From Escherichia phage vB_Eco_CWW26, in the sequence record PQ900155.1: a stretch of 48,021 bases of DNA; one strand, written 5' to 3'. A program made the translations under genes and the position numbers. This document shows, in pieces, positions 28,727 through 48,021 of the stretch. Each line of letters starts with the position of its first letter. Within the stretch, counting starts at the first letter, position 1. The notes under the pieces were generated by a model. The model saw nothing but the letters and a program-made list of their open reading frames with translations, did not search any database and had not been told where the DNA came from.

Positions 28727-28729
28727 ATA

Positions 28730-30725: not shown

Positions 30726-30836
30726 ATGTACAAGACTAAACCACGTAAAGCAGGTGACGCCGGTGGGACATGTGTTAAACCCCGTGGTAAAACAGGTGAC
30801 GCGGGCGGTTCCAAAGTAAAACGCCGGACCAAATAA
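30726..30836 (+). CDS. small basic Gly-rich peptide (36 aa, putative)
   Basis: Hand-translated MYKTKPRKAGDAGGTCVKPRGKTGDAGGSKVKRRTK with internal repeat K(A/T)GDAGG; weak SD. Confidence 0.2.
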   Translation: MYKTKPRKAGDAGGTCVKPRGKTGDAGGSKVKRRTK

Positions 30837-30839
30837 ACA

Positions 30840-31250: not shown

Positions 31251-31276
31251 GTGGTATATCAAAGCGAGAAAACATT

Positions 31277-31558: not shown

Positions 31559-31574
31559 CGCGCCGGTAATTTCA

Positions 31575-34027: not shown

Positions 34028-34065
34028 CTCTGTTCCTCTCCGTAAGAAAAGCCCCAATTAAGGGG

Positions 34066-34245
34066 CTAAACGATAATAGTGTCACCTACTTTTAAAGCGT
34101 AGGCTTCATTTCGGTCTTTGAACCATCTTTCTGTATTTGAAACACTTCCCCAGCAGTTGTATTCAATCTTGACACGGTATGTTTGATACTCTTCATCCCA
34201 CATCGGTTCTTCCACTTTGGTTACCGTTGCATTAAGATTATTCAT
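34066..34245 (-). CDS. hypothetical small protein (59 aa)
   Basis: Hand-translated MNNLNATVTKVEEPMWDEEYQTYRVKIEYNCWGSV...; ATGA-coupled to upstream small ORF. Confidence 0.3.
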   Translation of the reverse strand: MNNLNATVTKVEEPMWDEEYQTYRVKIEYNCWGSVSNTERWFKDRNEAYALKVGDTIIV

Positions 34246-34391
34246 CCCCGTGTATACTCCGTATCATTTGTTTTATTTAACCCATTCTGGTTAATGTATT
34301 CCCGGCGTTGCTCCTGCACCTGTTTAATAGCCTTTTCCAGTTCGGCTAACTTGTCATCAAACTGTTTCAGTCGTTGGTCGTGTTCGGTCAT
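34242..34391 (-). CDS. hypothetical small coiled-coil protein (49 aa)
   Basis: Hand-translated MTEHDQRLKQFDDKLAELEKAIKQVQEQRREYINQ...; ATG overlaps the exonuclease stop. Confidence 0.3.
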   Translation of the reverse strand: MTEHDQRLKQFDDKLAELEKAIKQVQEQRREYINQNGLNKTNDTEYTRG

Positions 34392-34921
34392 AATTTCACC
34401 CCGTGCTTTTCACAAATTTCAATTAAGTGCCACGCTTGCGTGCGAGCGTCATCCAACGCATTATGATGCGTACCGAAACGGTCGCACTTAACGTCTGGAA
34501 ACAGCGATTTCATTGTGCGATAACAACGGTCATTCCAGAATTTCCACGGTTGGTTTTGACCGCATTTACGATATGCAGCACTGAGAATGGTGTTATCGAA
34601 TGCAGCACCGTTCCCCCACATCTGAACATCGCCGAATTTTTCCAACCAGGTTGCAAAATCATTAAGAACGGTTGCGAGAGATTGGGCTTTTTCGTTGTTC
34701 TCAAATGCAGCACGTGCGGCATCGGATTGTTGCAACCACCACAGCACTGTAGAAGTGTCCATTTCAAGTCCCTGACGCACTGAGCTATCAAGCGACACTT
34801 GCGCATAAAACCCTTCTTGCTCAACATTCTGAGCATCAAAAATAACCGCACCAATGGCAATAATTGCTGCACGATTACCGTTGCCCATTGTCTCAAGGTC
34901 TAACATGCAATGTTTCATCAT
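34388..34921 (-). CDS. 3'-5' exonuclease (DnaQ-like DEDD family)
   Basis: N-terminal MLDLETMG (Exo I D-x-E) and C-terminal HNALDDAR (Exo III). Confidence 0.6.
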   Translation of the reverse strand: MMKHCMLDLETMGNGNRAAIIAIGAVIFDAQNVEQEGFYAQVSLDSSVRQGLEMDTSTVLWWLQQSDAARAAFENNEKAQSLATVLNDFATWLEKFGDVQMWGNGAAFDNTILSAAYRKCGQNQPWKFWNDRCYRTMKSLFPDVKCDRFGTHHNALDDARTQAWHLIEICEKHGVKL

Positions 34922-34964
34922 CTCTCCGGATTAAATTACCCCGGCTCGCACCGGGGCGTTGTAG

Positions 34965-35768
34965 TTATGCTACTTTCTGACAGTGTTGTGCGATTAACTC
35001 TTCGCTCCAGCCTGGCATATTGAGCAACTGTGCTTTGGTATACACCGCGCCGTTGTAGCTGTACTTCTCTTCGACAACCGGCGGCGGTGTTACTAACAGG
35101 TCAGTTGCTGGCGGCGGTGTTGCAGGTGCCGGAGCAGCCGGAGCCGGGGTTGGAACAGGTGCGCCGCCGCCGAATACACTTGCCGCATCCGGACCGCTGC
35201 CTTCACGAACAATCGCTTCACCGGGGCGTGACAGTTCGAGCAGGTTTGGGTTCAGATATACGCCCGGAGACTTTGCTGGTTTATTGCCTTTAGCCACGAT
35301 ATTTACGCGTACATAGTCACCCAGCTTGATAGCGTTTGCGTCCTGAATTGCGTCCAGCGGGCTATATTTGCCAACGTGGTAGCAGTTGTAGGGAATTCGA
35401 GTATTAAGATGTAATACCCAGTGGCCGCGTTTGTAAGGGTCACTATTAGGAACATTACCTTCCTTGTTGGGAATGTCGCTATCGCCGTCAACTACCTTCC
35501 ATGAGAAATCGTTACGACGGGTCATTGCCTCATCGTAACCATGTTCAGCATCCAGTGCCGCCATGACGATTTGTTTGCCCCATTCGGTATCTTTCCAGTC
35601 TGCTTCACCAGTTTTAGGAATTGCAATACCGATGTAAATTTCCTTAACTGGCTGACCATCTTTACCGATGACCGGCTGTTTTGTGACTTTATCGGTGCGT
35701 ACATTTTGCTTCAGCGGGTGACCATGAATCAGACGAGCAACAGGGGTAACGAAAGTAAATTGAGCCAT
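34965..35768 (-). CDS. putative ssDNA-binding protein (DUF2815-like) with Pro/Ala-rich linker
   Basis: Position next to the Cas4-like nuclease; linker PVPTPAPAAPAPATPPPA; family from memory only. Confidence 0.35.
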   Translation of the reverse strand: MAQFTFVTPVARLIHGHPLKQNVRTDKVTKQPVIGKDGQPVKEIYIGIAIPKTGEADWKDTEWGKQIVMAALDAEHGYDEAMTRRNDFSWKVVDGDSDIPNKEGNVPNSDPYKRGHWVLHLNTRIPYNCYHVGKYSPLDAIQDANAIKLGDYVRVNIVAKGNKPAKSPGVYLNPNLLELSRPGEAIVREGSGPDAASVFGGGAPVPTPAPAAPAPATPPPATDLLVTPPPVVEEKYSYNGAVYTKAQLLNMPGWSEELIAQHCQKVA

Positions 35769-35822
35769 CTTGTAAATCCTCTCTGCTAAGTGTGGGAGAC
35801 CCTCTGTCTCCCGGTGATTTGA

Positions 35823-35851
35823 ATACTACGTTGGTTTGACGAGTACGTCAA
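35823..35851 (-). promoter_or_regulatory. sigma70-like promoter, palindromic -35 (leftward)
   Basis: Minus strand TTGACG-tactcgtcaaaccaacg-TAGTAT; palindrome TTGACGAGTACGTCAA 35836-35851; 5'UTR hairpin GGGAGAC-N5-GTCTCCC. Confidence 0.55.
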
Positions 35852-35854
35852 CAA

Positions 35855-37030
35855 CTATTTTCGGGAAAATACATTTTTAATTGCACGTTCATCGACCTGT
35901 TCCAGCTTGACACCTGTCACAGGTGTTTCGGAGTACTGCTCAATAATGGACGGGTCGATACCTTTTTTGACACACTGTGCGGGTGTGTCCAGTTCCTGCG
36001 GCTTACGAAGATTCTGACCGAGTAAATCCCCCATCATAATCACCTGGTCAACCGGAACATCTTTCTTCCAGCGCTTACGACCGTATGTGGTTTTGGCGCT
36101 ATAGAATGTCACGTGTTGCCCCTGCTTAATCTCGTGCAGTGCCTGTTCCTCCAGACCACTGAGACGCATTTTAATCATCTCCTGAGCACGCTGCAGGAGT
36201 CGCAATTCAACACCCAGGGCATGACCGGACAGGTTGTGCGTCTGTAACGACTGCACGTAGTCCACACCGGCATAACTTTGTTGCTTCAGCGTGTCACAGT
36301 GTGCGCGTGCGCTACAGTCGAGACAGTGTGGCCCCGGCGTACACATCGGCGCGGTGTCCAGCACGCGGGGCATCGTCTCGTTCACCTGCTGCCGGTATAC
36401 ACACAGTTCATCGTATGTGAGCGCCCATTTGCGTACCGTACCGTCACTGGTGAATCCGCGAGGCTGCACGATGACCAGTTCAATAACGTCCGGCGGCGTC
36501 TGGAATTGCTCACAAATACTGAACGCTTCAATCAATAGCTGCCAGTTTTCAAACGGGTCAACAATGCGATGACCGAATTTAGCGTCCCAGACACGTAGTA
36601 CCTTTTCTTCCGGTACGTACACCCACGCGTCAGGAATACAGTACCAGTCGCCGTAACCCGGGACGGGACACGCTTCCTCAACGTGAAGTCCCTGAGTGCA
36701 GTCATGACTGTTACAGTAACCCCACACCTCGTTAAAATACTCACGAGCGGCGTCAAACAGTTCATCCGTGATAACAATTCCATCCTTTGACAGACTGCCC
36801 ACCAGTTCACCAAACGGCTCATTACGGAACAGTTTCTGAGCCACTTCGTGACATGCCCGGCCCTCTAGCCGGGATTGTGACGGTTCGACGTCCAGTGGTG
36901 GATAAGCCTGCTGCGCACGGAACGACCCGTTACAGTTCATCCACGTACCAGCGTCGGATACTTTGGGTAAATTAGTCATGTTTACTCCAACCCATCCATT
37001 ACGACCAGACGCAATCCCGCAATTAGGCAA
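35855..37030 (-). CDS. Cas4-like PD-(D/E)xK nuclease (DUF2800-like) with C-terminal Cys cluster
   Basis: Cys cluster CTPGPHCLDCSARAHC near the C-terminus; adjacency to the SSB-like gene. Confidence 0.45.
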   Translation of the reverse strand: MPNCGIASGRNGWVGVNMTNLPKVSDAGTWMNCNGSFRAQQAYPPLDVEPSQSRLEGRACHEVAQKLFRNEPFGELVGSLSKDGIVITDELFDAAREYFNEVWGYCNSHDCTQGLHVEEACPVPGYGDWYCIPDAWVYVPEEKVLRVWDAKFGHRIVDPFENWQLLIEAFSICEQFQTPPDVIELVIVQPRGFTSDGTVRKWALTYDELCVYRQQVNETMPRVLDTAPMCTPGPHCLDCSARAHCDTLKQQSYAGVDYVQSLQTHNLSGHALGVELRLLQRAQEMIKMRLSGLEEQALHEIKQGQHVTFYSAKTTYGRKRWKKDVPVDQVIMMGDLLGQNLRKPQELDTPAQCVKKGIDPSIIEQYSETPVTGVKLEQVDERAIKNVFSRK

Positions 37031-37311
37031 TTATCACCGTATGCAAAATTTGCGGTATGTGGTGATTTAGCCATCACACTGGTGTCAGAAACCCATTCAA
37101 AATCGATTCCCTGTTTTTCGATGATTTCCATACCAATACCATAAGCGTTAGAAGGGCAAAACGGTTGCCAGTGGTCTTGCTCATTTCTTACGAATAAACA
37201 ATCACCGTGATGTTCCCGAATTATGAAACCATTCACTTGTTCACCCGGTTTGAAAATCTTGTAATTTAGTTTCAGCGCTTTTGCGACATTTAAGTCTAGT
37301 TCTTTGTCCAT
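36982..37311 (-). CDS. hypothetical protein (109 aa)
   Basis: ATG at 37311 (MDKELDL) within ORF-track frame; overlaps the downstream gene start. Confidence 0.4.
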   Translation of the reverse strand: MDKELDLNVAKALKLNYKIFKPGEQVNGFIIREHHGDCLFVRNEQDHWQPFCPSNAYGIGMEIIEKQGIDFEWVSDTSVMAKSPHTANFAYGDNCLIAGLRLVVMDGLE

Positions 37312-37315
37312 TGTC

Positions 37316-38350
37316 TCACTCCCCCAAATGCGCTTTAACACGTGCCACAAACGGACCGATTTTATCCGGGTGGGCGTTCAGTTCCTGCACCGACGACATA
37401 CCGTCCTGCGCCAGCAGCGTGTTCACCGTTGCCACATCAATCTTACCGTGACGCTCGGTCAGGAAGGTCATGAGGCGTGGGAAGTCCCAGTCGGTTACTT
37501 CCGGTACAGGCGGTGCAACAACTACCGGCGGCGGTACAGGTTTCTCGTATGCAGGAGCACCACCGTGACCATTTTCACACGTTACGCCGCTGGGCGATGA
37601 AAATTGAGGTTTCATGCACACTGAACACAGGTCACCAGTTTCAGGATGTGTCACTTCCGATTTCCAGTCATCAGTAGGAGGCGGCACAGGAAGTGGCGGA
37701 ATACCTGCAACGGTCTGCTCGGTTACCACGCCAGCGTCAGTGTGGAAGTCATCGGCCGGAGGTGTTACCGATGGTTCAGGAGTGACGCAAATATGTGGAG
37801 TTCCGTGATGGTCACAACCTTCATCAATGCACAATTCTTCACCGGATGGTGTCACCGGTACAGGTTCTTGAGGGAAACGTAATTCATCCTGTACTCGCTG
37901 AATAGTTGCCGCCCACTGCTCCTCATCCATGCCCTTCGGCTTACGACGCAGACGCCACGTACCGTCCGCATTAAGCGCCTTACTGGTGGAGTGGATACGC
38001 TCGTCCCACGGTGTACCGGTTGAGTCGGTAGTGGGTGGGTCGATATCCGGTTTAACTGGTACGCACAATTCAACCATTTCGCGAGTTACTTCAATACTTC
38101 TCCCGTCACGGGGAGCCAGCGACTCAACCTGTTGAGCAGTCGTGTCGACTTCCGGCTCATCCATCATTTGTGGCGCGGATTGTTGCAGTAATTCAGTGCT
38201 GATAACCAATGGGGTTACGGTCACATCGACTGGGTGACCATCTTTTTTGCTGGCAATTTCGATAAGCGCTTTACCGAATTGAAGCAATGCGATGGTATCG
38301 TCGTTCGGGATGGTTAAAGTGATAAGGTTGGTCATTGTTCTACGCTCCAT
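37316..38350 (-). CDS. modular Pro-rich zinc-binding replication-module protein
   Basis: 344 aa; Cys/His clusters CIDEGCDHHGTPHIC and CSVCMK...CENGHGG; contains GTPWDERIH also found in the polymerase C-terminus. Confidence 0.5.
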   Translation of the reverse strand: MERRTMTNLITLTIPNDDTIALLQFGKALIEIASKKDGHPVDVTVTPLVISTELLQQSAPQMMDEPEVDTTAQQVESLAPRDGRSIEVTREMVELCVPVKPDIDPPTTDSTGTPWDERIHSTSKALNADGTWRLRRKPKGMDEEQWAATIQRVQDELRFPQEPVPVTPSGEELCIDEGCDHHGTPHICVTPEPSVTPPADDFHTDAGVVTEQTVAGIPPLPVPPPTDDWKSEVTHPETGDLCSVCMKPQFSSPSGVTCENGHGGAPAYEKPVPPPVVVAPPVPEVTDWDFPRLMTFLTERHGKIDVATVNTLLAQDGMSSVQELNAHPDKIGPFVARVKAHLGE

Positions 38351-38622
38351 AATAAAGTTTCTTCAATCACTTCGAATTCGATTTCATCAACGTAACCGGT
38401 TTCCCAGTCTGTACCGACATTTAAGTTGCATTTCCACTTGTAAACGCCGGGAATTTTATCTTCTACCTCAAACGGTAAACCGATTTCCTCAGCGTTGCCG
38501 GGGTCAAGCAAGCTGTAATGAATGTTGGGGGTTTTAAGAATTGTAACTGTGCCCCATTTATCAACCGCCACGATCCACTCGGACCCGTTGGGTGAGTCGT
38601 ATTGTTCATCATTTTCTTGCAT
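38332..38622 (-). CDS. small highly acidic protein (96 aa)
   Basis: About 21 Asp/Glu versus about 5 Lys/Arg; ATG at 38622 with GGAGGA SD; first gene after the promoter. Confidence 0.45.
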   Translation of the reverse strand: MQENDEQYDSPNGSEWIVAVDKWGTVTILKTPNIHYSLLDPGNAEEIGLPFEVEDKIPGVYKWKCNLNVGTDWETGYVDEIEFEVIEETLLWSVEQ

Positions 38623-38654
38623 CTCTCTGTCCTCCATTGTTGTCGATGTGGTGA

Positions 38655-38683
38655 ACTCTATATCACCATGACGCAACCGTCAA
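38655..38683 (-). promoter_or_regulatory. sigma70-like promoter, palindromic -35 (leftward)
   Basis: Minus strand TTGACG-gttgcgtcatggtgata-TAGAGT; + strand palindrome ATGACGCAACCGTCAA 38668-38683. Confidence 0.5.
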
Positions 38684-38697
38684 CACTAATTTTAAAT

Positions 38698-38726
38698 TTG
38701 ACACGGGGTGGGTGGTGCGACATAAT
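38698..38726 (+). promoter_or_regulatory. sigma70-like promoter (rightward)
   Basis: TTGACA-cggggtgggtggtgcga-CATAAT (17-bp spacer), about 35 bp upstream of ATG 38761. Confidence 0.55.
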
Positions 38727-38760
38727 GACGCCATCGTCAATAGTTGAGAGGAAGTGAGAG

Positions 38761-38964
38761 ATGAGTAATATTAAACCCGGCAAAGACCTTGCACCTTACT
38801 GTCATTTTAGACCGATGACGTACCATCAATGCGACAGCCGTTGCGACGATTATTATGATGGATGGGAATGTGACTTCTGTGGTCACGTTATCCCCGCTCC
38901 AGAATGGAATGCAAAGTTAAAAGTAAAATATGACGGTGGGGATTTAACCAATGACACAAATTAA
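38761..38964 (+). CDS. small Cys-rich protein (67 aa)
   Basis: ORF track; GAGAGGAAGTGAGAG SD; CHF...CDSRCDD...CDFCGH. Confidence 0.45.
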   Translation: MSNIKPGKDLAPYCHFRPMTYHQCDSRCDDYYDGWECDFCGHVIPAPEWNAKLKVKYDGGDLTNDTN

Positions 38965-39124
38965 ACAACTGCTCCGGCCATCTTACGGCTGGTACAACTC
39001 GGTCAGTAAGAAGGATAAGTGGTTTCTCGACGATGTGCAGATACCGATGTATGTGGCACGTAAACTAATCAGAAAAGCACGTATGGTCGAGTCGAACGAC
39101 GTGCGCAAAGTGTGGGAGATGTAG
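38951..39124 (+). CDS. hypothetical small protein (57 aa)
   Basis: Hand-translated MTQIKQLLRPSYGWYNSVSKKDKWFLDD...; overlaps neighbours in a coupled array. Confidence 0.3.
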   Translation: MTQIKQLLRPSYGWYNSVSKKDKWFLDDVQIPMYVARKLIRKARMVESNDVRKVWEM

Positions 39125-39126
39125 AG

Positions 39127-39315
39127 ATGGGAACAGGGCGTATACGAGCCGCTTTACAAGCTATCGATGTCGAACTGAAGATATGTGAACTCGGTGTCAT
39201 AGGGTGGAGTCATTTTTATGATACTCCGTTAAAGAAAAAGAAAAGACAGCTTAAAGCTCACACGAAGGGATTAATAAATCACGACAGGATTATCACGTGG
39301 AGCGACCGTAAATGA
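39127..39315 (+). CDS. hypothetical small protein (62 aa)
   Basis: ATG at 39127 within ORF-track frame 39112..39315; stop overlaps the helicase ATG. Confidence 0.35.
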   Translation: MGTGRIRAALQAIDVELKICELGVIGWSHFYDTPLKKKKRQLKAHTKGLINHDRIITWSDRK

Positions 39316-40955
39316 TACCAACACTCCGACCCTATCAGGAAAAACTGGTCAAAGACACGTACCAGCAGTGGGACGCCGGTAAGCAGTTTGTGGCAATGGT
39401 GAGCGCTACCGGCTCCGGCAAGTCAATGACCCTGACCGCTATTGTCGCAAAAGAGCGTGACCGGGGTCAGTATGTGCTGGTGCTGGCGCATCGTCAGGAG
39501 CTTATAACACAGTTGAGCGACACGATGGGACGTATGGAAATCCGCCACCAGGTTATCGCTGCTAATAAAGTGGTACGCTTCGCCGCTAAACAGTCGATGG
39601 AAAACCACGGGGTTAATTATGTTGACCCGAATGCGCGGGTAATGGTTGCGTCCGTACAATCAATGCGTGAGGCTAAAATTGCTGACCTGGCAAAGCTGGG
39701 TAATAAGCTGACCGTTGTGCAGGATGAATTCCACCATGCCACGAAGAAATCGAAGACCTGGGGAGGTGTGCTGACACCCCTGCTTAACGCTGGTGCACGC
39801 GGACTTGGACCGACCGCCACACCTTGTCGTGCGGATGGACAGGGTTTATCACGCGAGACGGACGGTTACGCGGATGTGATTGTTGAAGGTCCGTCAATGC
39901 GCTGGCTTATCGACAACGGATATCTTAGTCAGTACAAAATTTACTGCCCGCCGACCGACCTACAACTGGATAACGTGGAAACCAGTAAAACCACGGGGGA
40001 CTATAAAGAGAAGGAACTCAAAGCGGAGATTGGGCGTTCACATATCGTCGGCGACATTGTGAGTCACTATCTCAAAATCTGCCCGGGTAAACGCGGCATC
40101 ACCTTTACCGTCGGCGTGGATACGGCAGAGGAAGTAGCGGAAGAATATCGTAAGCGTGGTGTACCAGCAATTGCATTGTCCGGGCGCAATGCAGATGAAG
40201 AACGTGTACAGGCTATCCGTGATTTGAAGTCTGGAAAGATTTTGCAAATTGTTAATGATTCGTTAATAGGGGAAGGAGTGGACATTCCCGCAGTGGAAGT
40301 AGTGTCTTTCGCCAGACCGACACAGAGTTATGCACTTTATGCACAAATGTTCGGTCGTGCGCTGCGTCCGTTCGAGGGAAAATCACACGCTATCATTATC
40401 GACGCAGTATCAAACGTCATGCGCCACGGTTTACCGGATGCACCGCGTGAGTGGAGTCTTGACCGTCGGGAGCGTCGCACGGGTAAAAGTGAACCATCGA
40501 CGGTGCGCGTGTGTACAGCTTGCGCGGCAGTGTATGAGCGGTTCCGTGACGCATGTCCGGACTGCGGTGAGCCTGTACCTAAACCGGCGCAACGTAGTGG
40601 TCCAGAGTTTGTAGACGGTGACCTTTACGAGCTTGACCCGGACGTACTGGCGCAGATGCGTAATGAGGTTGTGGGGGCACGTGAGACACCCGAGGCAATG
40701 CGTGACAGACTGACCGCACAACATGCGCCGCCTGCTGGAGTAATGGCTAACGTCAAACGTCAGAGAGAAAGGCTTGACGCGCTCGTCAAATTGGACCTAA
40801 AATTAGCGGAGTGGGCCGGGTATCGTCGTGCGGAAGGTCTGAGCGACAATGAAATATTTCGCAAGTTTTACCTGACGTATGGCGTGTCATGGCTGGAGGC
40901 GCAGGCGCTCAAATCGGCTGATGCGGATAAATTAAGAGAGAGGATTGGGTTATGA
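39312..40955 (+). CDS. SF2 DNA helicase (DEAD/DEAH-like)
   Basis: Walker A SATGSGKS; motif II VVQDEFHH; C-terminal zinc-ribbon-like CTACAAVYERFRDACPDCGEP. Confidence 0.65.
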   Translation: MIPTLRPYQEKLVKDTYQQWDAGKQFVAMVSATGSGKSMTLTAIVAKERDRGQYVLVLAHRQELITQLSDTMGRMEIRHQVIAANKVVRFAAKQSMENHGVNYVDPNARVMVASVQSMREAKIADLAKLGNKLTVVQDEFHHATKKSKTWGGVLTPLLNAGARGLGPTATPCRADGQGLSRETDGYADVIVEGPSMRWLIDNGYLSQYKIYCPPTDLQLDNVETSKTTGDYKEKELKAEIGRSHIVGDIVSHYLKICPGKRGITFTVGVDTAEEVAEEYRKRGVPAIALSGRNADEERVQAIRDLKSGKILQIVNDSLIGEGVDIPAVEVVSFARPTQSYALYAQMFGRALRPFEGKSHAIIIDAVSNVMRHGLPDAPREWSLDRRERRTGKSEPSTVRVCTACAAVYERFRDACPDCGEPVPKPAQRSGPEFVDGDLYELDPDVLAQMRNEVVGARETPEAMRDRLTAQHAPPAGVMANVKRQRERLDALVKLDLKLAEWAGYRRAEGLSDNEIFRKFYLTYGVSWLEAQALKSADADKLRERIGL

Positions 40956-41251
40956 GCAATATGTGCGACTGTCATTCCTGTGGTCTAAGAAGTAGTGCGG
41001 CACCCGAAAAGAACAAGGAATACGAAAAAATAATCAATATGTTAATCGACTCTGGTGGGGAGAAACAACTTGTTGAGTTAATTAGAATTTTTACGAATAA
41101 AATTTCCACGGAAATATCCACATCTCGTGGTCCGAATCTGCTTGCATATGAAAACAAAGAATTAGCACGAGTAGATGTAATTACGCGGGCAGCTGAACAA
41201 TTGAAAAGTCTTCTCACCTCTCGCATTCAGGATGGGGGTGACACAAAATGA
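40952..41251 (+). CDS. hypothetical protein (99 aa, AT-rich codons)
   Basis: ORF track; ATGA overlap with helicase. Confidence 0.4.
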   Translation: MSNMCDCHSCGLRSSAAPEKNKEYEKIINMLIDSGGEKQLVELIRIFTNKISTEISTSRGPNLLAYENKELARVDVITRAAEQLKSLLTSRIQDGGDTK

Positions 41252-41721
41252 CACCAACACTTCTCGAATGGCAACGTAAGCACGGTATCACGGCTGAGGC
41301 GCTGGCTGACCTTGTGACAATGGTGGGACTGGATGTCCCACGCTCAACCAAAGATACGCCCGAAGCGCGTGTACAGGATGAGGCGCGACTGCTGGCAAGT
41401 AAGATGGGCTGGCGACTTTTTCGCAATAATGTGGGTGTCCTGAAGGATGAGCGGGGTGTACCGGTACGTTACGGTATCGCAAATGACTCCCCGGCGATGA
41501 ACAAACGTATCAAGTCAAGCGACCTCATCGGCATTCGCCCCGTGGTTATCACACCCGATATGGTCGGGTCAACCATTGGTCAGTTTGTGGCGCGTGAGGT
41601 GAAAAAAGCCGGGTGGAAGTATAAAGGTACGGAACACGAAAAGGCACAGCTCGCATTTGGGACGCTGATTATCGGGCTGGGCGGTGATTTTAAATTTTAT
41701 AGTGGTGAGGGGGAATTGTGA
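41248..41721 (+). CDS. VRR-NUC domain nuclease
   Basis: LFRNNVGV...RYGIANDSPAM...SDLIGIRP...QFVAREVKKAG matches VRR-NUC (PD-(D/E)xK). Confidence 0.6.
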   Translation: MTPTLLEWQRKHGITAEALADLVTMVGLDVPRSTKDTPEARVQDEARLLASKMGWRLFRNNVGVLKDERGVPVRYGIANDSPAMNKRIKSSDLIGIRPVVITPDMVGSTIGQFVAREVKKAGWKYKGTEHEKAQLAFGTLIIGLGGDFKFYSGEGEL

Positions 41722-41996
41722 TGGCTGTTATTACACTTGAGCAAATTATCGAACTTCAATATCGAAGACACAACAACGTGTCGAATCAACAATTCAAACA
41801 ACTTAACGGAAAATATTCTTCCAGAGGTTTGAGAAATGCGCACCGTTACGCCGATATTGAGCGCCACAAATGTTGGCCACGCGGTAAAACTTATTACCGT
41901 CTCTACCGTCGCCAGATGAATCCACACATCAACTTTACTGTTTCACCGGGTCATCCGGACAGATATAAACACATGTCGTTGCGGATGTGGAGTTGA
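41718..41996 (+). CDS. hypothetical basic protein (92 aa)
   Basis: ORF track; ATGA overlap with VRR-NUC gene. Confidence 0.4.
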   Translation: MMAVITLEQIIELQYRRHNNVSNQQFKQLNGKYSSRGLRNAHRYADIERHKCWPRGKTYYRLYRRQMNPHINFTVSPGHPDRYKHMSLRMWS

Positions 41997-42050
41997 CCAC
42001 TCCGTCAACCTGTGCCATACTGCAACAAATTACCTAATGGAACCGAACTC

Positions 42051-42329
42051 ATGAGCAAAGAGCATATTTTAGAAGTAGCTTACACGATGGCACAGCGCGA
42101 CGGCTTTGGTACTCTTACCCGCGATGGTGTCGCTGCCGAGGCTGGTGTGGCGATGGGAAGCGTTAACCATCACTGGGGTAAGATGTCCGCACTTCGTGAA
42201 GCAGTGATGCAACGGGCGGTAGAAGAAGAAAACCTCGAATTGATTGGGCAGGGGATGGCGCTGGGTGATAGCGTTGCCAAATCCGCCCCACTGGAGCTAC
42301 GCACACGCGCGTTGACAACCCTGCTTTAA
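42051..42329 (+). CDS. small HTH protein (TetR-type N-terminal HTH, no ligand domain)
   Basis: SKEHILEVAYTMAQRDGFGTLTRDGVAAEAGVAMGSVNHHWGKMSALREAV fits the TetR HTH pattern; ATG at 42051 (ORF-track frame 42012). Confidence 0.45.
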   Translation: MSKEHILEVAYTMAQRDGFGTLTRDGVAAEAGVAMGSVNHHWGKMSALREAVMQRAVEEENLELIGQGMALGDSVAKSAPLELRTRALTTLL

Positions 42330-42353
42330 TAACTAAAACAGAGAGAGACAGAG

Positions 42354-44711
42354 ATGACACATGTGAATCCCCCGGTGCAGGGGGCCGATTCCCTGCACTT
42401 TATCGTCTGCAAAACAGTATCTTCACAGAAGAAGCCCGGGCGCACGGAGAAGATGCCATGTAATGCCGCTGGTGATGTAGTCAGTCTGCACGTTGCGGAC
42501 CGTATGACTCATGCTCAGGCGGTTGCGGCGGCTTCTGCACTGGGTGAGTCATATCGCCCCGCAGTCATTCTCACGGGTGACGGTCGTTTCTGCGTGGATA
42601 TCGACGGTGCACTACAGGATGATAACACCTGGTCACCGCTCGCGCTGGAGTTGTGCACCACTTTTGCCGGTTGTTACGTGGAAGTGAGTAACAGCGGTAA
42701 AGGCTTGCACATTTTTGGTTACAGTCCGTCCATCCCTGAGCATAGCTGTAAAAATATTTCGCTGCACATCGAACTGTACACGTCTGACCGTTTTATCTGT
42801 CTGGGAAGTGGTGCACGGGGTGACATGATGTTTAACGCGTCTGTACCACTCAACGCCACGGTTGCACGTTATTTCCCACAGACCGAGCAAGTTACGGCGA
42901 CGGAATGGACCACAACTCACGTCGAAGGCTCATGTCCGATTGAGGACGATGCGAAACTCATCGAAAAAGCCTGTTCGAGTAAAGGTGGTGTCGCGGCTGT
43001 TTTCGGTGGCAAAGCAACATTCAAAGACCTGTGGACGCGTAATGTTGAGGTACTGAGTGATGCGTATCCAGATGAGGACCGCGAGTATGACGGGTCGAGC
43101 GCCGATGCCGCACTGGCCCAACATTTATCGTTCTGGACCGGTGGTAACTGTGAACGTATCGAACGCCTGATGTGTCTGTCTGCGCTGGCACGTCCTAAAT
43201 GGGACAGTCACAAATCGTACATGCGACGTACCATTCTGGGTGCTTGCGCGCGTCAGACAACTTATTACAGTGTCGGCGCACCGATTGAACTGGTGACCCC
43301 TGCTCAGGTCATTGAGACGGGTGCACCAGTTATCCGCAGTGGGTATCAATTTATTGGTGGCTCGCAGCTTGTTGACCACTTCAAAGGTTGTGTATATGTG
43401 GCAGACAGTCACCGTATTCTCACCCCCAACGGTCAGATGCTGAAGTCTGAGCAGTTTAACGCGATGTACGGTGGCTATGTGTTTGCGCTGGATGATGGTA
43501 ATGAGAAGACCACTAAAAAGGCTTTCGAAGCGTTCACCGAGAACCAGTGTATCATGTTTCCGAAAGTTGACCGCTCAACGTTCCGTCCGGACCTGCCGCA
43601 GGGTGCTATCATCGAAGAAGATGGTCTGCGTCATGTCAACGCATACGTACCGGTGACAGTAGCAAGCGTCCCGGGCGATGTGACACCTTTCCTTACTCAT
43701 CTGGCCAAACTGTTACCCGTCGAGCGTGACCGCGACATCCTGCTGTCCTACATGGCAGCATGCGTACAGTACAAAGGGACCAAGTTCAAATGGGCACCAT
43801 TGTTGCAGGGCGTCGAGGGTAACGGTAAAACACTGTTCACACTGTGCGTAATGGAAGCGGTTGGTTCACGCTACAGCCACATGCCGCCAGCGCAGGAAAT
43901 CGGTGAGAAGTTCAACGCCTGGCTGTTCGATAAAATATTTATCGGCGTGGAAGATATTTACGTTCCGGAGCAGAAACTTGAACTGATTGAAACACTCAAG
44001 CCAATGATTACCGGTGAGTACCTCGCTAAGCGTGCGATGCAGCAGGACCAGGTAATGCACCGCCTGTGTGCTAACTTCATGTTTAACAGTAACCACAAGA
44101 ACGCCGTGCGCAAGACCGCTAATGACCGCCGGTTCGCTATTTTCTACACCGCGCAGCAGGAGCATATGGACATTGTGCGCGATGGCATGGGTGGCGACTA
44201 CTTCCCCAACCTGTACGACTGGCTCAAACGTGGCGGTGGATTTGCAGCCGTAACGCATTATCTGGAGAACTACGCCATTCCCGCACAACTTAACCCGGCG
44301 ACACATTGTCAGCGTGCCCCGGAAACAAGTAGCACCCATGAGGCTGTGACAGCATCGCTCGGTAGTGTCGAGCAGGAAATCATGGAAGCAATCGACGAGG
44401 GTCGCCAGGGCTTTGCGGGCGGTTGGGTGAGTAGTAAGGCACTGGATAATCTGTTACGCCAGATGCGCGCTGACCGCGCTGTACCGGTAGGTAAACGTCG
44501 TGACATGATGCGTCAACTGGGTTACGACTGGCACCCGGCGCTTAAAGACGGACGTGTGAACAATGTGATAATGATTGACGGTGGTAAGCCGCGGTTGTAC
44601 ATCAAGATTGGACACATTCACGCTAACCTCACAAATGCGGCGGACGTGGCGCGCCATTACGCAGCGGCACAGGGTGATACAAGTGCGTTAGCCTTTGCAG
44701 AAACTAAATAA
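42354..44711 (+). CDS. primase-polymerase (AEP) fused to SF3/D5-like helicase
   Basis: AEP motifs CVDIDG and SNSGKGLHIFG in N-terminal half; Walker A GVEGNGKT in C-terminal half. Confidence 0.65.
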   Translation: MTHVNPPVQGADSLHFIVCKTVSSQKKPGRTEKMPCNAAGDVVSLHVADRMTHAQAVAAASALGESYRPAVILTGDGRFCVDIDGALQDDNTWSPLALELCTTFAGCYVEVSNSGKGLHIFGYSPSIPEHSCKNISLHIELYTSDRFICLGSGARGDMMFNASVPLNATVARYFPQTEQVTATEWTTTHVEGSCPIEDDAKLIEKACSSKGGVAAVFGGKATFKDLWTRNVEVLSDAYPDEDREYDGSSADAALAQHLSFWTGGNCERIERLMCLSALARPKWDSHKSYMRRTILGACARQTTYYSVGAPIELVTPAQVIETGAPVIRSGYQFIGGSQLVDHFKGCVYVADSHRILTPNGQMLKSEQFNAMYGGYVFALDDGNEKTTKKAFEAFTENQCIMFPKVDRSTFRPDLPQGAIIEEDGLRHVNAYVPVTVASVPGDVTPFLTHLAKLLPVERDRDILLSYMAACVQYKGTKFKWAPLLQGVEGNGKTLFTLCVMEAVGSRYSHMPPAQEIGEKFNAWLFDKIFIGVEDIYVPEQKLELIETLKPMITGEYLAKRAMQQDQVMHRLCANFMFNSNHKNAVRKTANDRRFAIFYTAQQEHMDIVRDGMGGDYFPNLYDWLKRGGGFAAVTHYLENYAIPAQLNPATHCQRAPETSSTHEAVTASLGSVEQEIMEAIDEGRQGFAGGWVSSKALDNLLRQMRADRAVPVGKRRDMMRQLGYDWHPALKDGRVNNVIMIDGGKPRLYIKIGHIHANLTNAADVARHYAAAQGDTSALAFAETK

Positions 44712-44735
44712 GCCCTTCGGGGCTTTTTTTTTTTT
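44711..44735 (+). terminator. rho-independent terminator after primase-helicase
   Basis: AGCCC-TTCG-GGGCT followed by T12. Confidence 0.75.
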
Positions 44736-44745
44736 GCAATTAGTG

Positions 44746-44774
44746 TTGACGAGTTCGTCAATGGGGAGTATAGT
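44746..44774 (+). promoter_or_regulatory. sigma70-like promoter, palindromic -35 (rightward)
   Basis: TTGACG-agttcgtcaatggggag-TATAGT (17-bp spacer); palindrome TTGACGAGTTCGTCAA 44746-44761; about 30 bp upstream of ATG 44805. Confidence 0.65.
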
Positions 44775-44804
44775 TAGTTCATCGACAACAGAGAGGTGAT
44801 GAAG

Positions 44805-44912
44805 ATGAGCAAGAAAACACAATTTTCAGTAAGCAACTACCATAACGAGCACGTCATGCGCTGGCACTGGCAGAAACTCAAAGAGCGCTACCTGGCAACG
44901 CAGGGTAAATAA
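44805..44912 (+). CDS. hypothetical small protein (35 aa)
   Basis: Hand-translated MSKKTQFSVSNYHNEHVMRWHWQKLKERYLATQGK; GAGAGGTGA SD; followed by hairpin GCGCCAC-CGAA-GTGGCGC. Confidence 0.35.
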   Translation: MSKKTQFSVSNYHNEHVMRWHWQKLKERYLATQGK

Positions 44913-44956
44913 ATAACATAGCGCCACCGAAGTGGCGCATAACCAGAGATAAGACC

Positions 44957-45130
44957 ATGAAAAACATTATCAATCATCACAAATTGTCTGACCTTCTGCG
45001 TGATATGACCGAGGTTCAGGCGTTGAACGCACTGTCACGTATGCGCACACAAGCTGACCGGGAGGGACTGTGTGTCACTCGTCTCATTGTTGAAGGTAAA
45101 GTTGTGGAGCAATGGATATGGAAACATTGA
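44957..45130 (+). CDS. hypothetical small protein (57 aa)
   Basis: Hand-translated MKNIINHHKLSDLLRDMTEVQALNALSRMRTQADREGLCVTRLIVEGK...; weak SD. Confidence 0.3.
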   Translation: MKNIINHHKLSDLLRDMTEVQALNALSRMRTQADREGLCVTRLIVEGKVVEQWIWKH

Positions 45131-45333
45131 GTTATTGTCAGCTGATGGAGCGCATGTTAGCGGCTGAAGCGCGGGTGGTGGAACTGGAGAAATATAAAGC
45201 TGCATTTATAACGTGGCAAGACAAAACAGAATGGGTACAGAAGGATTCACGCTTTGACATTTTATTACCCTGGGGTAAACATCGCGCGGACGTACTGAAA
45301 GAGTACATTGAATTGCTGGAGCGTAAACCATGA
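45112..45333 (+). CDS. hypothetical protein (73 aa)
   Basis: ORF track; coupled (ATGA) to downstream gene. Confidence 0.4.
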   Translation: MDMETLSYCQLMERMLAAEARVVELEKYKAAFITWQDKTEWVQKDSRFDILLPWGKHRADVLKEYIELLERKP

Positions 45334-45626
45334 TTAAATATTTACCACTTGTAGCGCTCCTGGTGGGCGCTCAGGTTAACGCAGCTGTTACTGCTGAAAC
45401 AAATGAGTCACAGGTTGCTAACCTGCTCTTTAACGGCTGTAGCGCTCAACGTGCACAAATGGGCGTACAGGAAATTATTAAACAGGCTAACCCCGGCGGC
45501 AATCCAGCAGTGACTGACCTTATCATCAAAGGTTACAAGTTCGGCATTGATTACCCGAACGTCGGATGTAACCAGTTCTTCACGGTTGTCATTGACCAGT
45601 TAGTTAAAAGCCGGAGTAAAGCGTAA
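45330..45626 (+). CDS. small secreted / periplasmic protein with signal peptide
   Basis: MIKYLPLVALLVGAQVNAAVTAE signal-peptide-like N-terminus; two Cys in mature part. Confidence 0.45.
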   Translation: MIKYLPLVALLVGAQVNAAVTAETNESQVANLLFNGCSAQRAQMGVQEIIKQANPGGNPAVTDLIIKGYKFGIDYPNVGCNQFFTVVIDQLVKSRSKA

Positions 45627-45961
45627 TGACTGTACCAGTATTCATTGAAGTATCTGGAGGATACAACAGGCCACCAGTATTGTGCGAATTCGTGATAACC
45701 AAAATGGGGCGGAAATACGCATACGGGTACCGTACGGATATTCCCTATAAAATCGAAGAAAAAATCGACATTGATAACTGGTGGTACTCGCGTGAAGAGT
45801 ACGAACACGAAGTAGTCCGACGGAAATTAGCTGACGCAATAAAGAAGCGATTAAGCGAGTTCATGGGACTGGAATCAATAACGCGCGCATCTGCTTCTGA
45901 TTTACACGGATTAGTTTTGCAACTGAAGAAATGTGGGATAGAGGTGAAATTTGATGATTAG
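45626..45961 (+). CDS. hypothetical protein (111 aa)
   Basis: ORF track; start overlaps upstream stop. Confidence 0.4.
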   Translation: MTVPVFIEVSGGYNRPPVLCEFVITKMGRKYAYGYRTDIPYKIEEKIDIDNWWYSREEYEHEVVRRKLADAIKKRLSEFMGLESITRASASDLHGLVLQLKKCGIEVKFDD

Positions 45962-47096
45962 ATTGACAGACGAACAATTGATTACGGATGTCACATCTGG
46001 AATGAGTGGTCACGCTATTGCGAGAAAGTATGGTATGACCCCCGGCAACATTAACCGCCGCATCAAACGTCTCGGTGCGCGCGGTCTTGGTCACGGTGGT
46101 GATGTGTCTCGCTTTGTGCCGGACGGTTACAAGGTGAAAGGTACATCATCACTGGTGAAGGAGGATGGGACTGTAGCGCTACAATGGGTTAAAACCGACG
46201 TAGACGCCGAGCGTCAGCTGAAAATGATGCAGGAAGCGATTGTGGCACTTACAGAGTGCTTATCCCCACTAGAGGAAATCAATTTAATATCCCATGATGA
46301 GGATAGCACTCTCCTGAACATGTACACAGTAACAGATGCACACATTGGTATGTTGGCATGTGAAGAAGAGGGTGGAGACGATTACGACACCAATATCGCG
46401 GAACATCTCATATCATCGTGGTTCAAATCAGCGACAACATTGGCACCCAATGCAACAGAATGCCTCATTAACCTTCAGGGGGATTTCCTGCACTTCGACG
46501 GACTGAAGGCAGTTACACCAACATCCGGACACATTCTCGACTCTGATACGCGTTTCTTCAAAGTGGTACAGACTGCTATCCGCGTGATTAAACGAGCCGT
46601 GAATATGTGTCTGGAGAAGCATCGGAAAGTGACGCTGCTAATCGCCACTGGTAACCATGACCTCGCGTCCGCCGTGTGGTTGCGAGAGATGTTTAAAGAG
46701 GTGTATTGCGGTAATCCCCGCGTGACCATTGTAGACGAACAAAGTCCCTACTACGCAATCGAATTCGGTAAAGTGATGATTGGTGTCCATCACGGGCATT
46801 GTTCCAGAATGGAAAAGTTGGACGCAGTATTTGCCAGTAAGTTCCGGGAGATTTATGGCCGTACTAAGTTCGGCTACCTACACATGGGACACTATCATCA
46901 TCGGAAAGTGTCAGAGAGCAACATGTTCGTTACCGAGATGCACCAAACTCTGGCGGCCAAAGACGAGTATTCAAGTAACGGAGGTTACGACTCCGGAAGA
47001 AGCGCCACTGTCATAACATATCATCGAGACTATGGTGAGATTGGCAGAATATCAATTCCCGTAGAGATGATTAAGGACCAGTATGGACTGGAATAG
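45954..47096 (+). CDS. HTH domain fused to calcineurin-like metallophosphoesterase (putative)
   Basis: N-terminal HTH-like SGHAIARKYGMTPGNINRRIKRLG; ordered phosphoesterase motifs VTDAHIG, LQGDFLHFDG, IATGNHD, GVHHGH, GHYHH; GAGGTGA SD before ATG 45954. Confidence 0.45.
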   Translation: MIRLTDEQLITDVTSGMSGHAIARKYGMTPGNINRRIKRLGARGLGHGGDVSRFVPDGYKVKGTSSLVKEDGTVALQWVKTDVDAERQLKMMQEAIVALTECLSPLEEINLISHDEDSTLLNMYTVTDAHIGMLACEEEGGDDYDTNIAEHLISSWFKSATTLAPNATECLINLQGDFLHFDGLKAVTPTSGHILDSDTRFFKVVQTAIRVIKRAVNMCLEKHRKVTLLIATGNHDLASAVWLREMFKEVYCGNPRVTIVDEQSPYYAIEFGKVMIGVHHGHCSRMEKLDAVFASKFREIYGRTKFGYLHMGHYHHRKVSESNMFVTEMHQTLAAKDEYSSNGGYDSGRSATVITYHRDYGEIGRISIPVEMIKDQYGLE

Positions 47097-47111
47097 TATC
47101 AGGTAAATAAA

Positions 47112-47138
47112 AGGCCCGCATTTAGCGGGCTTTGTTTT
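47112..47138. terminator. bidirectional rho-independent terminator
   Basis: GCCCGC-ATTTA-GCGGGC followed by TTTGTTTT; T-rich on the minus side too; between convergent genes. Confidence 0.7.
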
Positions 47139-47316
47139 ATCCAAGTGGAAATTTTTTATCAATCCATTCGTTCATCCTAATTCTCAATCTCTTCACGGAG
47201 TAACTCCAGTCATCGGCCTTATTTAGTATCGACTCAACAACTAAAATAATAATGAATACAGGTAGTACGATTATCCTTCCTGTGAGACTTTTCTTACTCA
47301 TCTTGTGCCATTGCAT
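47137..47316 (-). CDS. small membrane protein (59 aa, putative)
   Basis: ATG at 47316 (MQWHKMSKK...) with GGAAGA SD; TM IIVLPVFIIILVVESIL; within ORF-track frame 47137..47484. Confidence 0.35.
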   Translation of the reverse strand: MQWHKMSKKSLTGRIIVLPVFIIILVVESILNKADDWSYSVKRLRIRMNEWIDKKFPLG

Positions 47317-47320
47317 TTTA

Positions 47321-47899
47321 TTATCTTCCACAGTTGCGGCATTCACCATTTGCCACATAACGTTCCGCAATAATATTACAATGCTTGCAAGGCTCATACG
47401 GAATATACCAGCGTTTGCCGTCAGCGATGGCCTGCTGGCGCGGTGATTTAATTTTAATGACTCCAACGTGAATTCCCGATTCACTCAGTAACAGGGCGTT
47501 TTTCATCGTCTCCAACTGTTCATTTAAAACAGAAATATTATGCTCAATCATGGCGATGTTTTCACGCAGTGCATCGACCTCACCAGCGGTGTCAACAATG
47601 GCTGCTTTTGGTTTTTTCCATTCCCCCGTCATGCGTTGTTCGGTTAAGCAGAAGACACATTTACCAGCAGTGTTACGGACGCCCGGATGTCCACATTCAC
47701 TGTTCGGTTTCTTCTGTACTCTCCACGAGCGACCATCATTAAGACCGTCGAGAACTTTTTGATAGAGTTCGTTGCGTGCAGGAAGACCCATGTTTTTCGC
47801 TTTCACAAAATCATGATGGTCATGAAGTGCACAAATACTACACAATTCTGTTTCTTTAAATTTTGTAGTGCCGTGACAATTATCTATAAGATGAATCAT
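47321..47899 (-). CDS. Cys-rich zinc-finger protein (192 aa)
   Basis: Three CxxC-type clusters (C-x8-C-x2-C; C-x11-C-x2-C; C-x2-C-x12-C-x2-C) and a central coiled-coil-like region; first gene downstream of the repeat-associated leftward promoter. Confidence 0.45.
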   Translation of the reverse strand: MIHLIDNCHGTTKFKETELCSICALHDHHDFVKAKNMGLPARNELYQKVLDGLNDGRSWRVQKKPNSECGHPGVRNTAGKCVFCLTEQRMTGEWKKPKAAIVDTAGEVDALRENIAMIEHNISVLNEQLETMKNALLLSESGIHVGVIKIKSPRQQAIADGKRWYIPYEPCKHCNIIAERYVANGECRNCGR

Positions 47900-47924
47900 G
47901 TTTCTCTCCTTTTGTAGAGTATAT

Positions 47925-47954
47925 ACTATAAAATAATAGAGAATTACTCGTCAA
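47925..47954 (-). promoter_or_regulatory. sigma70-like promoter, half-palindrome -35 at repeat boundary (leftward)
   Basis: Minus strand TTGACG-N18-TATAGT; -35 is the first 10 nt of repeat copy C; the second half-site is absent here. Confidence 0.45.
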
Positions 47955-48021
47955 CACCTCATTTTACCCCGAAATACCCGAGCTATCGGGGTGGTGAATT
48001 TACATTCACAATCATAGGTTT
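47945..48021. repeat. start of 300-bp repeat (wrap-around copy of 1-77)
   Basis: 47945-48021 matches 1-77 by eye; implies a 47,944-bp circular or permuted unit. Confidence 0.9.

What the first reader, a model, noticed from the sequence alone, without database searches (positions are those of the whole stretch)
47945..48021. Window wraps a circular or permuted genome; unit length about 47,944 bp
The last 77 nt repeat the first 77 nt, which are the start of the 300-bp repeat, so the record is a complete genome opened inside the repeat. Genes at both ends are therefore adjacent in the real molecule: the Zn-finger gene at 47321-47899 lies upstream of repeat copy A and terS.
Basis: seen in the sequence. 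Interest (0 to 1): 0.25.

Follow-up and report, generated by a model that had tools for sequence, protein, structure and literature searches.

The report
Assembler overlap at phage genome ends
The 77 bases repeated at both ends of this phage genome record are an untrimmed overlap left by the assembly software.

Summary
Bases 47945-48021 equal bases 1-77 exactly, and those bases are also the start of an exact 300-nt repeat (1-300 = 14844-15143).

The window is the whole GenBank record of Escherichia phage ZCEC13 (Jedunavirus). The 77-nt duplicate is an untrimmed SPAdes k=77 overlap from a circular assembly path.
- The depositing lab assembles with SPAdes (k up to 77/99).
- Its three Dhillonvirus records each carry an exact 77-nt end overlap, at three different genome positions. 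Its T4-like record carries 127 nt.
- An unrelated lab's Jedunavirus record (KpTDp1) shows the same signature: a 77-nt overlap, and a record that opens at base 1 of its own exact internal repeat.
- The only repeated 77-mers in ZCEC13 lie at 1-224, so the contig starts on the single branching node of the graph.

Removing the 77 nt gives a 47,944-bp unit. Phage JD001 spans its junction (Cys-rich gene, then the element, then terS) without a break.

The virion DNA is most likely packaged by the headful mechanism, circularly permuted and terminally redundant. TerL is 33% identical to phage T1 TerL, and a published read analysis of relative IME346 found no fixed ends. This part is inferred, because no ZCEC13 reads were available.

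The finding is ordinary and of low interest.

The parts
47945..48021 (.). Redundant 77-nt copy of bases 1-77: untrimmed SPAdes k=77 overlap of a circular contig, not a separate piece of phage DNA
   Evidence: Exact prefix = suffix of 77 nt. The same lab's records ZCEC10/11/12 have 77-nt overlaps and ZCEC14 has 127 nt. The lab's pipeline is SPAdes with k=21,33,55,77,99. KpTDp1 from another lab shows the same signature.
1..300 (.). Copy A of the conserved ~300-nt intergenic element. It lies between the leftward Cys-rich gene and rightward terS. The record opens at its first base.
   Evidence: Exact 300-nt repeat. The only repeated 77-mers of the unit are at 1-224. Nearly all Jedunavirus records hold two copies. 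Alignment of 14 copies.
14844..15143 (.). Copy B of the element, between leftward gp30 (14395-14853) and the rightward neck/tail operon (starts at 15199)
47321..47899 (-). Cys-rich (4 x CxxC) 192-aa protein of unknown function. It is the last gene of the record and the true left neighbour of element copy A and terS.
   Evidence: Translation. phrog_20468, E 5.9e-123, unknown function. No Pfam hit. The same gene order is contiguous in JD001 (23335-23913 next to terS at 22466-22924).
366..824 (+). Terminase small subunit (terS)
   Evidence: Pfam Terminase_2, E 4.9e-8. phrog_51. No detectable similarity to T1 TerS.
814..2262 (+). Terminase large subunit (terL), related to T1-type headful terminases
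   Evidence: Pfam Terminase_6C. phrog_38. 33% identity to T1 TerL, E 4e-81, nearly full length. Relatives at about 30-35% identity include Drexlerviridae records (T1; SFP17, tuinn, tonijn) and many Klebsiella, Escherichia and Salmonella phage records.
2265..3674 (+). Portal protein
   Evidence: Pfam Phage_portal_3, E 5e-95. 23% identity to T1 portal, E 3e-17.

Best explanation
The window is the full GenBank/RefSeq record of Escherichia phage ZCEC13 (Jedunavirus). Short reads of a phage whose DNA assembles as a circle were assembled with SPAdes at a final k of 77. When SPAdes walks a closed path in its de Bruijn graph, it writes out a contig whose last k bases repeat its first k bases. That overlap was never trimmed before deposition, so bases 47945-48021 are a book-keeping duplicate of bases 1-77. 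The contig starts at base 1 of the 300-nt repeat for a simple reason. The first 77-mer of that repeat is the one node where two graph paths merge, so it is a natural contig boundary. The real sequence unit is 47,944 bp. On the circular map the order is: Cys-rich gene (minus strand), element copy A, then terS-terL-portal. The physical DNA in the particle is most likely linear, cut from concatemers by a T1-like headful terminase, and therefore circularly permuted and terminally redundant. That would explain why the reads close into a circle. Shown: the exact overlap, its equality to the assembler's k, its recurrence in unrelated records from the same lab and in another lab's Jedunavirus, and collinearity of relatives across the junction. 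Inferred: SPAdes k=77 for this particular record (there is no paper on ZCEC13), and headful packaging.
For: (1) Exact 77-nt prefix = suffix.
(2) The record is ON086804/NC_071140, 48,021 bp, Jedunavirus, flagged circular.
(3) The same lab publishes SPAdes on MiSeq 2x150 reads with k=21,33,55,77,99 (PMC8954371), and SPAdes with 'different K-mers' for ZCEC14 (PMC10873995).
(4) The lab's other records ZCEC10, ZCEC11 and ZCEC12 (each 44,776 bp, opened at three different places) all have exact 77-nt end overlaps. ZCEC14 (165,622 bp, T4-like) has 127 nt.
(5) KpTDp1 (PP847084, another lab, Jedunavirus) has a 77-nt end overlap and opens at base 1 of its own exact 273-nt internal repeat. That repeat begins at a different homologous position, window-equivalent base 22.
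(6) In the 47,944-bp unit the only repeated 77-mers are the 224 starting at positions 1-224, and none is shared with the reverse strand.
(7) JD001 covers the trimmed junction 1-3000 in one piece of 2,994 bp at 94.8% identity, so there is no 77-nt tandem duplication there.
(8) Headful packaging: IME346 showed no fixed termini in read-terminus analysis (PMC9007800). ZCEC13 TerL is >=99% identical to the TerL of 28 other phage records, and that paper reports IME346 TerL as 99% identical to KpV79's. TerL is 33% identical to T1 TerL, E 4e-81. The T1 record annotates a 2.8-kb repeat region at its left end (1-2800). T1 pac-type headful packaging and terminal redundancy are established knowledge.
Against: No paper or assembly note for ZCEC13 itself was available, so SPAdes k=77 is inferred from the lab's other work and from the pattern. 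No reads were available, so neither junction-spanning reads nor the absence of fixed termini could be checked for this phage. Four relatives' records (KpV52, KpV79, JustaPhage, cmc20193) open at one homologous spot inside the element, about window 137-140. That could hint at a real end there. However, KpV79 was a Newbler assembly with no terminus work reported, and other records open at base 1, base 22 or about base 107.
Confidence: 0.92

Rival explanations
1. The 77 nt are a genuine short direct terminal repeat of the linear virion DNA, as in T7-like phages, so the record is a faithful end-to-end copy of the molecule.
For: An exact repeat at both record ends is what a DTR would look like. Tools such as CheckV score it as a DTR.
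Against: The length equals the assembler's k. The same 77 nt (or 127 nt) overlap appears in unrelated phages from the same lab at arbitrary positions inside genes, and in KpTDp1 at a different homologous position. Relatives run straight through the junction with no duplication. IME346 reads showed no fixed termini. TerL groups with T1-type headful terminases.
Confidence: 0.02
2. The wrap is a false closure. The contig ran into the third occurrence of a repeated 77-mer, and the real genome is linear and ends in a partial extra copy of the element, or is arranged differently.
For: The 77-mer occurs three times in the record. Repeats are where assemblers mis-join.
Against: With one two-copy direct repeat, a single closed path has only one possible order. 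Relatives whose two copies are diverged (JD001 95.8%, KpV52 95.4%, RCIP0063 94.7%) show the same order: Cys-rich gene, copy A, terS on one side and gp30-like gene, copy B, neck/tail genes on the other.
Confidence: 0.03
3. The genome does close into a circle in assembly, but the virion DNA has fixed ends (cos or an exact DTR) or a strongly preferred pac start. These ends may lie inside the conserved element upstream of terS, where several relatives' records open.
For: KpV52, KpV79, JustaPhage and cmc20193 open at the same homologous point in the AT-rich centre of the element. The element sits just upstream of terS and carries repeated TACCCCGA motifs, a layout compatible with a terminase recognition site.
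Against: IME346 read analysis found no fixed termini. The openings of other records differ: base 1 in ZCEC13, base 22 in KpTDp1, about base 107 in Geezett, terL start in the RCIP records. The element is duplicated upstream of the tail operon, which fits a regulatory cassette better than a packaging site. Pfam finds only the Terminase_6C nuclease domain and no other terminase family, and the only experimentally characterised relative compared here is T1. KpV79 was a Newbler assembly with no terminus experiment reported.
Confidence: 0.08

Closest known systems
SPAdes (de Bruijn) circular-contig k-mer overlap, often mis-scored as a direct terminal repeat
   Same: The overlap is exact. Its length equals a standard SPAdes k (77; 127 in the lab's T4-like record). 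It sits at an arbitrary or graph-determined position. Removing it restores collinearity with relatives.
   Different: Nothing differs materially. The only special point is that the contig boundary coincides with the start of a real internal 300-nt repeat, which is the graph's single branching node.
Phage T1 (Drexlerviridae) pac-type headful packaging with terminal redundancy
   Same: TerL is 33% identical over nearly its full length (E 4e-81) and the portal is homologous (E 3e-17). Genome size is similar, about 48 kb. The assembly closes into a circle.
   Different: ZCEC13 is a myovirus of a different lineage. TerS shows no similarity to T1 TerS. No pac site, no measured redundancy and no read-based end analysis exist for ZCEC13.
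Klebsiella phage JD001 and other Jedunavirus genomes
   Same: 92-95% nucleotide identity over about 65-73% of the first 12 kb. Gene order is the same, the junction is contiguous, and the ~300-nt element is present in two copies.
   Different: The host is labelled Escherichia. The two element copies are 100% identical in ZCEC13, against 88-96% in most relatives. The record retains the 77-nt overlap.

Membership tests
Assembler k-mer overlap artefact (SPAdes circular path) | Overlap length equals the final k used by the assembler | tested here: met
   The overlap is 77 nt. The lab's stated k-mers include 77. Sister records have 77, 77, 77 and 127 nt. The assembly log of ZCEC13 itself was not seen.
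Assembler k-mer overlap artefact (SPAdes circular path) | Overlap position is unrelated to biology (arbitrary, or at a graph node) and differs between records of near-identical genomes | tested here: met
   ZCEC10/11/12 open at three different places. ZCEC13 and KpTDp1 each open at base 1 of their own exact repeat, at non-homologous positions.
Assembler k-mer overlap artefact (SPAdes circular path) | Trimming the overlap gives a junction that is contiguous in independent relatives | tested here: met
   JD001 and Kpn112 cover the trimmed junction in one piece.
Phage with exact direct terminal repeats (T7/T5/N4 style) | Defined physical ends, with doubled read coverage over the repeat | not testable with these tools
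   No reads for ZCEC13. The published analysis of relative IME346 found no fixed termini.
Phage with exact direct terminal repeats (T7/T5/N4 style) | Repeat length and position are properties of the phage lineage, not of the assembly | tested here: not met
   The length tracks the assembler k across unrelated phages. Among the 7 relatives' complete records checked for an exact end overlap (KpV52, cmc20193, RCIP0063, JD001, JustaPhage, KpV79, KpTDp1), only KpTDp1 has one, and it lies at a different position.
Headful (pac) packaging, circularly permuted and terminally redundant DNA | Large terminase belongs to a clade of experimentally headful phages | tested here: met
   33% identity and E 4e-81 to T1 TerL. 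Further hits at about 30-35% identity include Drexlerviridae records and many Klebsiella, Escherichia and Salmonella phage records. T1 headful packaging is established knowledge.
Headful (pac) packaging, circularly permuted and terminally redundant DNA | No fixed ends in virion DNA; assembly closes into a circle | tested here: inconclusive
   Circular closure is met. Absence of fixed ends is known only for relative IME346, from the literature.
Headful (pac) packaging, circularly permuted and terminally redundant DNA | Identified pac site and measured terminal redundancy | not tested
   Needs reads, restriction mapping or PFGE.
cos packaging (lambda/HK97/P2 style) | Terminase of a cos-type family and fixed cohesive ends | tested here: inconclusive
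   Pfam finds only Terminase_6C and no other terminase family. The only characterised phage compared directly is T1, a headful phage. No cos-type reference terminase was compared. The ends themselves are not testable here.
Genus Jedunavirus | High nucleotide similarity and shared gene order with JD001-like phages | tested here: met
   92-95% identity over about 65-73% of the query to many Jedunavirus records. The record's own taxonomy line agrees.

The most novel reading that the evidence does not exclude
The conserved two-copy ~300-nt element where the record opens may be more than a duplicated promoter region. It could hold a preferred packaging start (pac) or another cis-acting site. In that case the recurrent opening of relatives' records in its AT-rich centre would reflect real DNA ends, and the perfect identity of the two copies in ZCEC13 and JustaPhage would reflect ongoing gene conversion between functional sites.
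Probability: 0.08. Interest if true: 0.4.

Novelty: not a real feature. Interest (0 to 1): 0.05.

Why it matters
The value is mainly in data hygiene.
- The deposited and RefSeq record is 77 bp too long. Because it is flagged circular, it implies a tandem 77-nt duplication that does not exist.
- It carries an annotated CDS (47951..13) that spans that artificial junction.
- Tools that score terminal repeats would call this a 'DTR genome' for the wrong reason.
- Knowing the true 47,944-bp unit, and that the Cys-rich gene, element copy A and terS are neighbours, is needed for correct comparative maps.
- Four sister records (ZCEC10, 11, 12 and 14) and KpTDp1 have the same defect.
No biological surprise is involved.

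Tried and rejected
1. A literature search for ZCEC13 itself found only three papers that cite it in trees, with no methods. I therefore used the lab's other papers.
2. The neighbouring accessions ON086803 and ON086805 are not in the collection.
3. Searches for Jedunavirus combined with PhageTerm, terminal repeats or headful found no direct terminus study. The only one is IME346's 'no fixed termini'. The Geezett, HHU1, SCNJ1-Y, hvKpP3, KpV79 and FZ14 papers report no end analysis.
4. I tested whether the KpV52 record start coincides with an exact-block boundary between its two copies. The result was not clear-cut: the start lies 1 nt before a mismatch. I left this unexplained.
5. TerL has no sequence match in the PDB.
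6. An Rfam scan of 1-420 gave only chance-level hits.
7. The sigma-70 scan found nothing inside the element, and one weak site at 303-332.
8. A 77-bp DTR, false closure and fixed ends were considered and set aside (see the rival explanations).

Full report
**Observation.** The first 77 and last 77 bases of the window are identical, and 77 is the longest such length. The chance probability is about 10^-46. The same 77 nt occur a third time at 14844-14920, because 1-300 and 14844-15143 form an exact 300-nt direct repeat. The flanks of the two copies diverge immediately outside bases 1 and 300. The window therefore opens at exactly the first base of copy A. Subtracting the overlap gives a 47,944-bp unit.

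**Identity of the sequence.** The window is 100% identical over its tested 12 kb to Escherichia phage ZCEC13 (ON086804.1 / NC_071140.1), whose record length of 48,021 bp equals the window length. The RefSeq record is assigned to Jedunavirus and flagged circular. It carries a CDS that runs across the origin, 47951..13. Read as a circle of 48,021 bp, the record implies a tandem 77+77 duplication. That junction (AATCATAGGTTT|TACTCGTCAACA) exists only by wrapping the untrimmed record. The origin-spanning CDS is therefore an annotation artefact.

**Why 77, and why base 1 of the repeat.** No paper describes ZCEC13. The depositing laboratory's published pipeline is MiSeq 2x150 reads assembled with SPAdes at k = 21, 33, 55, 77, 99 (PMC8954371), and SPAdes with 'different K-mers' for ZCEC14 (PMC10873995).
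- I fetched the ends of the lab's other records. ZCEC11, ZCEC12 and ZCEC10 (OK310512-4) are Dhillonviruses, each 44,776 bp and opened at three different places. Each has an exact 77-nt prefix = suffix.
- ZCEC14 (OP168898, T4-like, 165,622 bp) has 127 nt.
- An overlap whose length is a standard SPAdes k, and which recurs in unrelated phages at arbitrary positions inside genes, belongs to the software and not to the viruses.
- An independent replicate comes from another lab. Jedunavirus KpTDp1 (PP847084, 49,311 bp) has an exact 77-nt end overlap and opens at base 1 of its own exact 273-nt internal repeat (1-273 = 13751-14023). That repeat begins at a different homologous position, window-equivalent base 22.
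- In the ZCEC13 unit the only 77-mers that occur twice are the 224 starting at positions 1-224. The first 77-mer of the repeat is thus the only merging node in a k=77 de Bruijn graph, and a closed walk written out from that node starts and ends with it. Both peculiarities of the window are explained: the overlap of 77 nt and the start at repeat base 1.

**Is the wrap real?** A synthetic junction built from the trimmed unit (46445-47944 joined to 1-1500) aligns to JD001 in a single piece. Coverage is 100%, identity 94.8%, and 3,000 query bases align to 2,994 record bases, well inside that record. The result is the same for Kpn112. Many other Jedunaviruses also cover the junction in a few pieces. 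JD001's own annotation places the homologue of the Cys-rich gene (23335-23913) directly beside terS (22466-22924).
- With one two-copy direct repeat, a single closed path has only one possible order.
- Relatives whose copies are diverged show that same order.
That gene is on the minus strand and is transcribed divergently from terS.
- Its product has four CxxC pairs, no Pfam hit and an unknown-function PHROG. 'Zn-finger' is a reasonable guess, not a demonstrated fact.

**Physical form of the DNA.** A circular assembly is compatible with headful, DTR or cos genomes. The evidence available favours headful packaging.
- A published high-throughput terminus analysis of Jedunavirus IME346 found no fixed termini (PMC9007800). 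ZCEC13 TerL is >=99% identical to the TerL of 28 other phage records, and that paper reports IME346 TerL as 99% identical to KpV79's.
- ZCEC13 TerL carries a Terminase_6C nuclease domain.
- Outside its own group, its relatives at about 30-35% identity include Drexlerviridae records and many Klebsiella, Escherichia and Salmonella phage records.
- Against T1 itself, TerL is 33% identical over almost the full length (E 4e-81) and the portal is homologous (E 3e-17). TerS is unrelated.
- T1 is a classic pac-type headful phage (established knowledge), and its record annotates a 2.8-kb repeat region at its left end, 1-2800.
- I therefore consider a linear, circularly permuted, terminally redundant virion DNA the most likely form, at about 0.7. 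This step is inferred, because no ZCEC13 reads could be examined.

**Rivals.**
- A true 77-bp DTR is contradicted by the sister-record control and by relatives that run through the junction.
- A false closure through the repeated 77-mer is contradicted by synteny.
- Fixed or preferred ends inside the element cannot be excluded. KpV52, KpV79, JustaPhage and cmc20193 all open at about window 137-140. However, other records open at base 1, base 22, about base 107 or at terL. KpV79 was a Newbler assembly with no terminus work reported. The IME346 result also argues against fixed ends.

**Context seen on the way.** The ~300-nt element is present in two copies in essentially all Jedunavirus records.
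- Each copy sits between divergent genes. Copy A lies between the Cys-rich gene and terS. Copy B lies between gp30 and the neck/tail operon.
- The KpV52 authors annotated divergent promoters in it.
- Across 14 copies from 7 genomes, the AT-rich centre and several ACCCCG motifs are almost invariant. TACCCCGA occurs 10 times in the window against 1.2 expected. Seven of these lie in element sequence: three in each full copy and one in the 77-nt end duplicate.
- Within-genome identity of the two copies is 100% in ZCEC13 and JustaPhage, but 88-96% in five other genomes. JustaPhage copy B resembles A-type copies of other phages more than B-type ones. This suggests occasional gene conversion. Bubble collapse by the assembler cannot be ruled out for ZCEC13.
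- The element is most simply a duplicated bidirectional regulatory cassette in front of the two late structural operons. That is a lead for a separate finding, not part of this one.

**Verdict.** The feature at 47945-48021 is an untrimmed assembler overlap. The circular map of the genome is already recorded in RefSeq. Interest is low (0.05).

Noticed in passing
window 1-300 and 14844-15143: A conserved ~300-nt intergenic element is present twice in nearly all Jedunavirus records. Each copy lies between divergently transcribed genes: Cys-rich gene / terS, and gp30 / neck-tail operon. The two copies are 100% identical in ZCEC13 and JustaPhage but only 88-96% identical in KpV52, KpV79, JD001, RCIP0063 and cmc20193. 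JustaPhage copy B looks converted to the A type. This suggests sporadic gene conversion, or assembler bubble collapse.
   Followed up: partly
window 21-28, 263-270, 276-283 and the same offsets in 14844-15143: The motif TACCCCGA occurs 10 times in the window against 1.2 expected. Seven are in element sequence: three in each full copy and one in the 77-nt end duplicate. Further ACCCCG/CGGGGT half-sites flank a nearly invariant AT-rich centre. This layout suits binding sites for a regulator (or, less likely, an ori- or pac-like site). No sigma-70 consensus promoter was found inside the element.
   Followed up: partly
window 47951-48021 joined to 1-13; also 39-104, 202-324, 14882-14947, 14995-15195: RefSeq annotates a 27-aa CDS across the record origin. 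It spans the artificial 77+77 junction, so it cannot exist in the real genome. The other tiny CDSs lying inside the two element copies are probably spurious too.
   Followed up: partly
L009-L016 (OK310512, OK310513, OK310514, OP168898) and L019 (PP847084): Five other public 'complete genome' records carry untrimmed assembler overlaps. ZCEC10, ZCEC11 and ZCEC12 have 77 nt each (true unit 44,699 bp, opened at three different points). ZCEC14 has 127 nt. KpTDp1 has 77 nt.
   Followed up: yes
L002, L003, L007, L008 record starts (equivalent to window ~137-140): Four relatives' records (KpV52, cmc20193, JustaPhage, KpV79) open at the same homologous point in the AT-rich centre of element copy A. The reason is unknown: copying the orientation of the first deposited record, a contig break, or a real end. 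The KpV52 start lies 1 nt before a mismatch between its two copies.
   Followed up: partly
whole window: The host is given as Escherichia sp., whereas 73 of the 96 records matching the first 12 kb are Klebsiella phages. ZCEC13 is an outlier in host label within Jedunavirus.
   Followed up: no
window 10883-10969 / 11087-11173 and 29072-29110 / 29276-29314: There are two pairs of diverged direct repeats (72-74% identity), each spaced 204 nt. One pair is inside the 'endonuclease-like protein' gene (10463-12043) and the other inside the tail fibre gene (28730-29587). These are probably internal domain duplications.
   Followed up: no
window 6390-6418 with 44768-44796, and 38654-38696 with 44733-44775: Inverted-repeat matches (90% over 29 nt and 72% over 43 nt) link three intergenic or small-ORF regions. 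They may be shared promoter or operator motifs.
   Followed up: no
window, many small CDSs (e.g. 5742-5852, 40952-41251, 45330-45626): Several RefSeq product names for very short ORFs look like over-transferred labels rather than real functions. Examples are 'NADH-ubiquinone oxidoreductase chain 3', 'Molybdopterin guanine dinucleotide synthesis protein B' and 'transketolase protein'.
   Followed up: no
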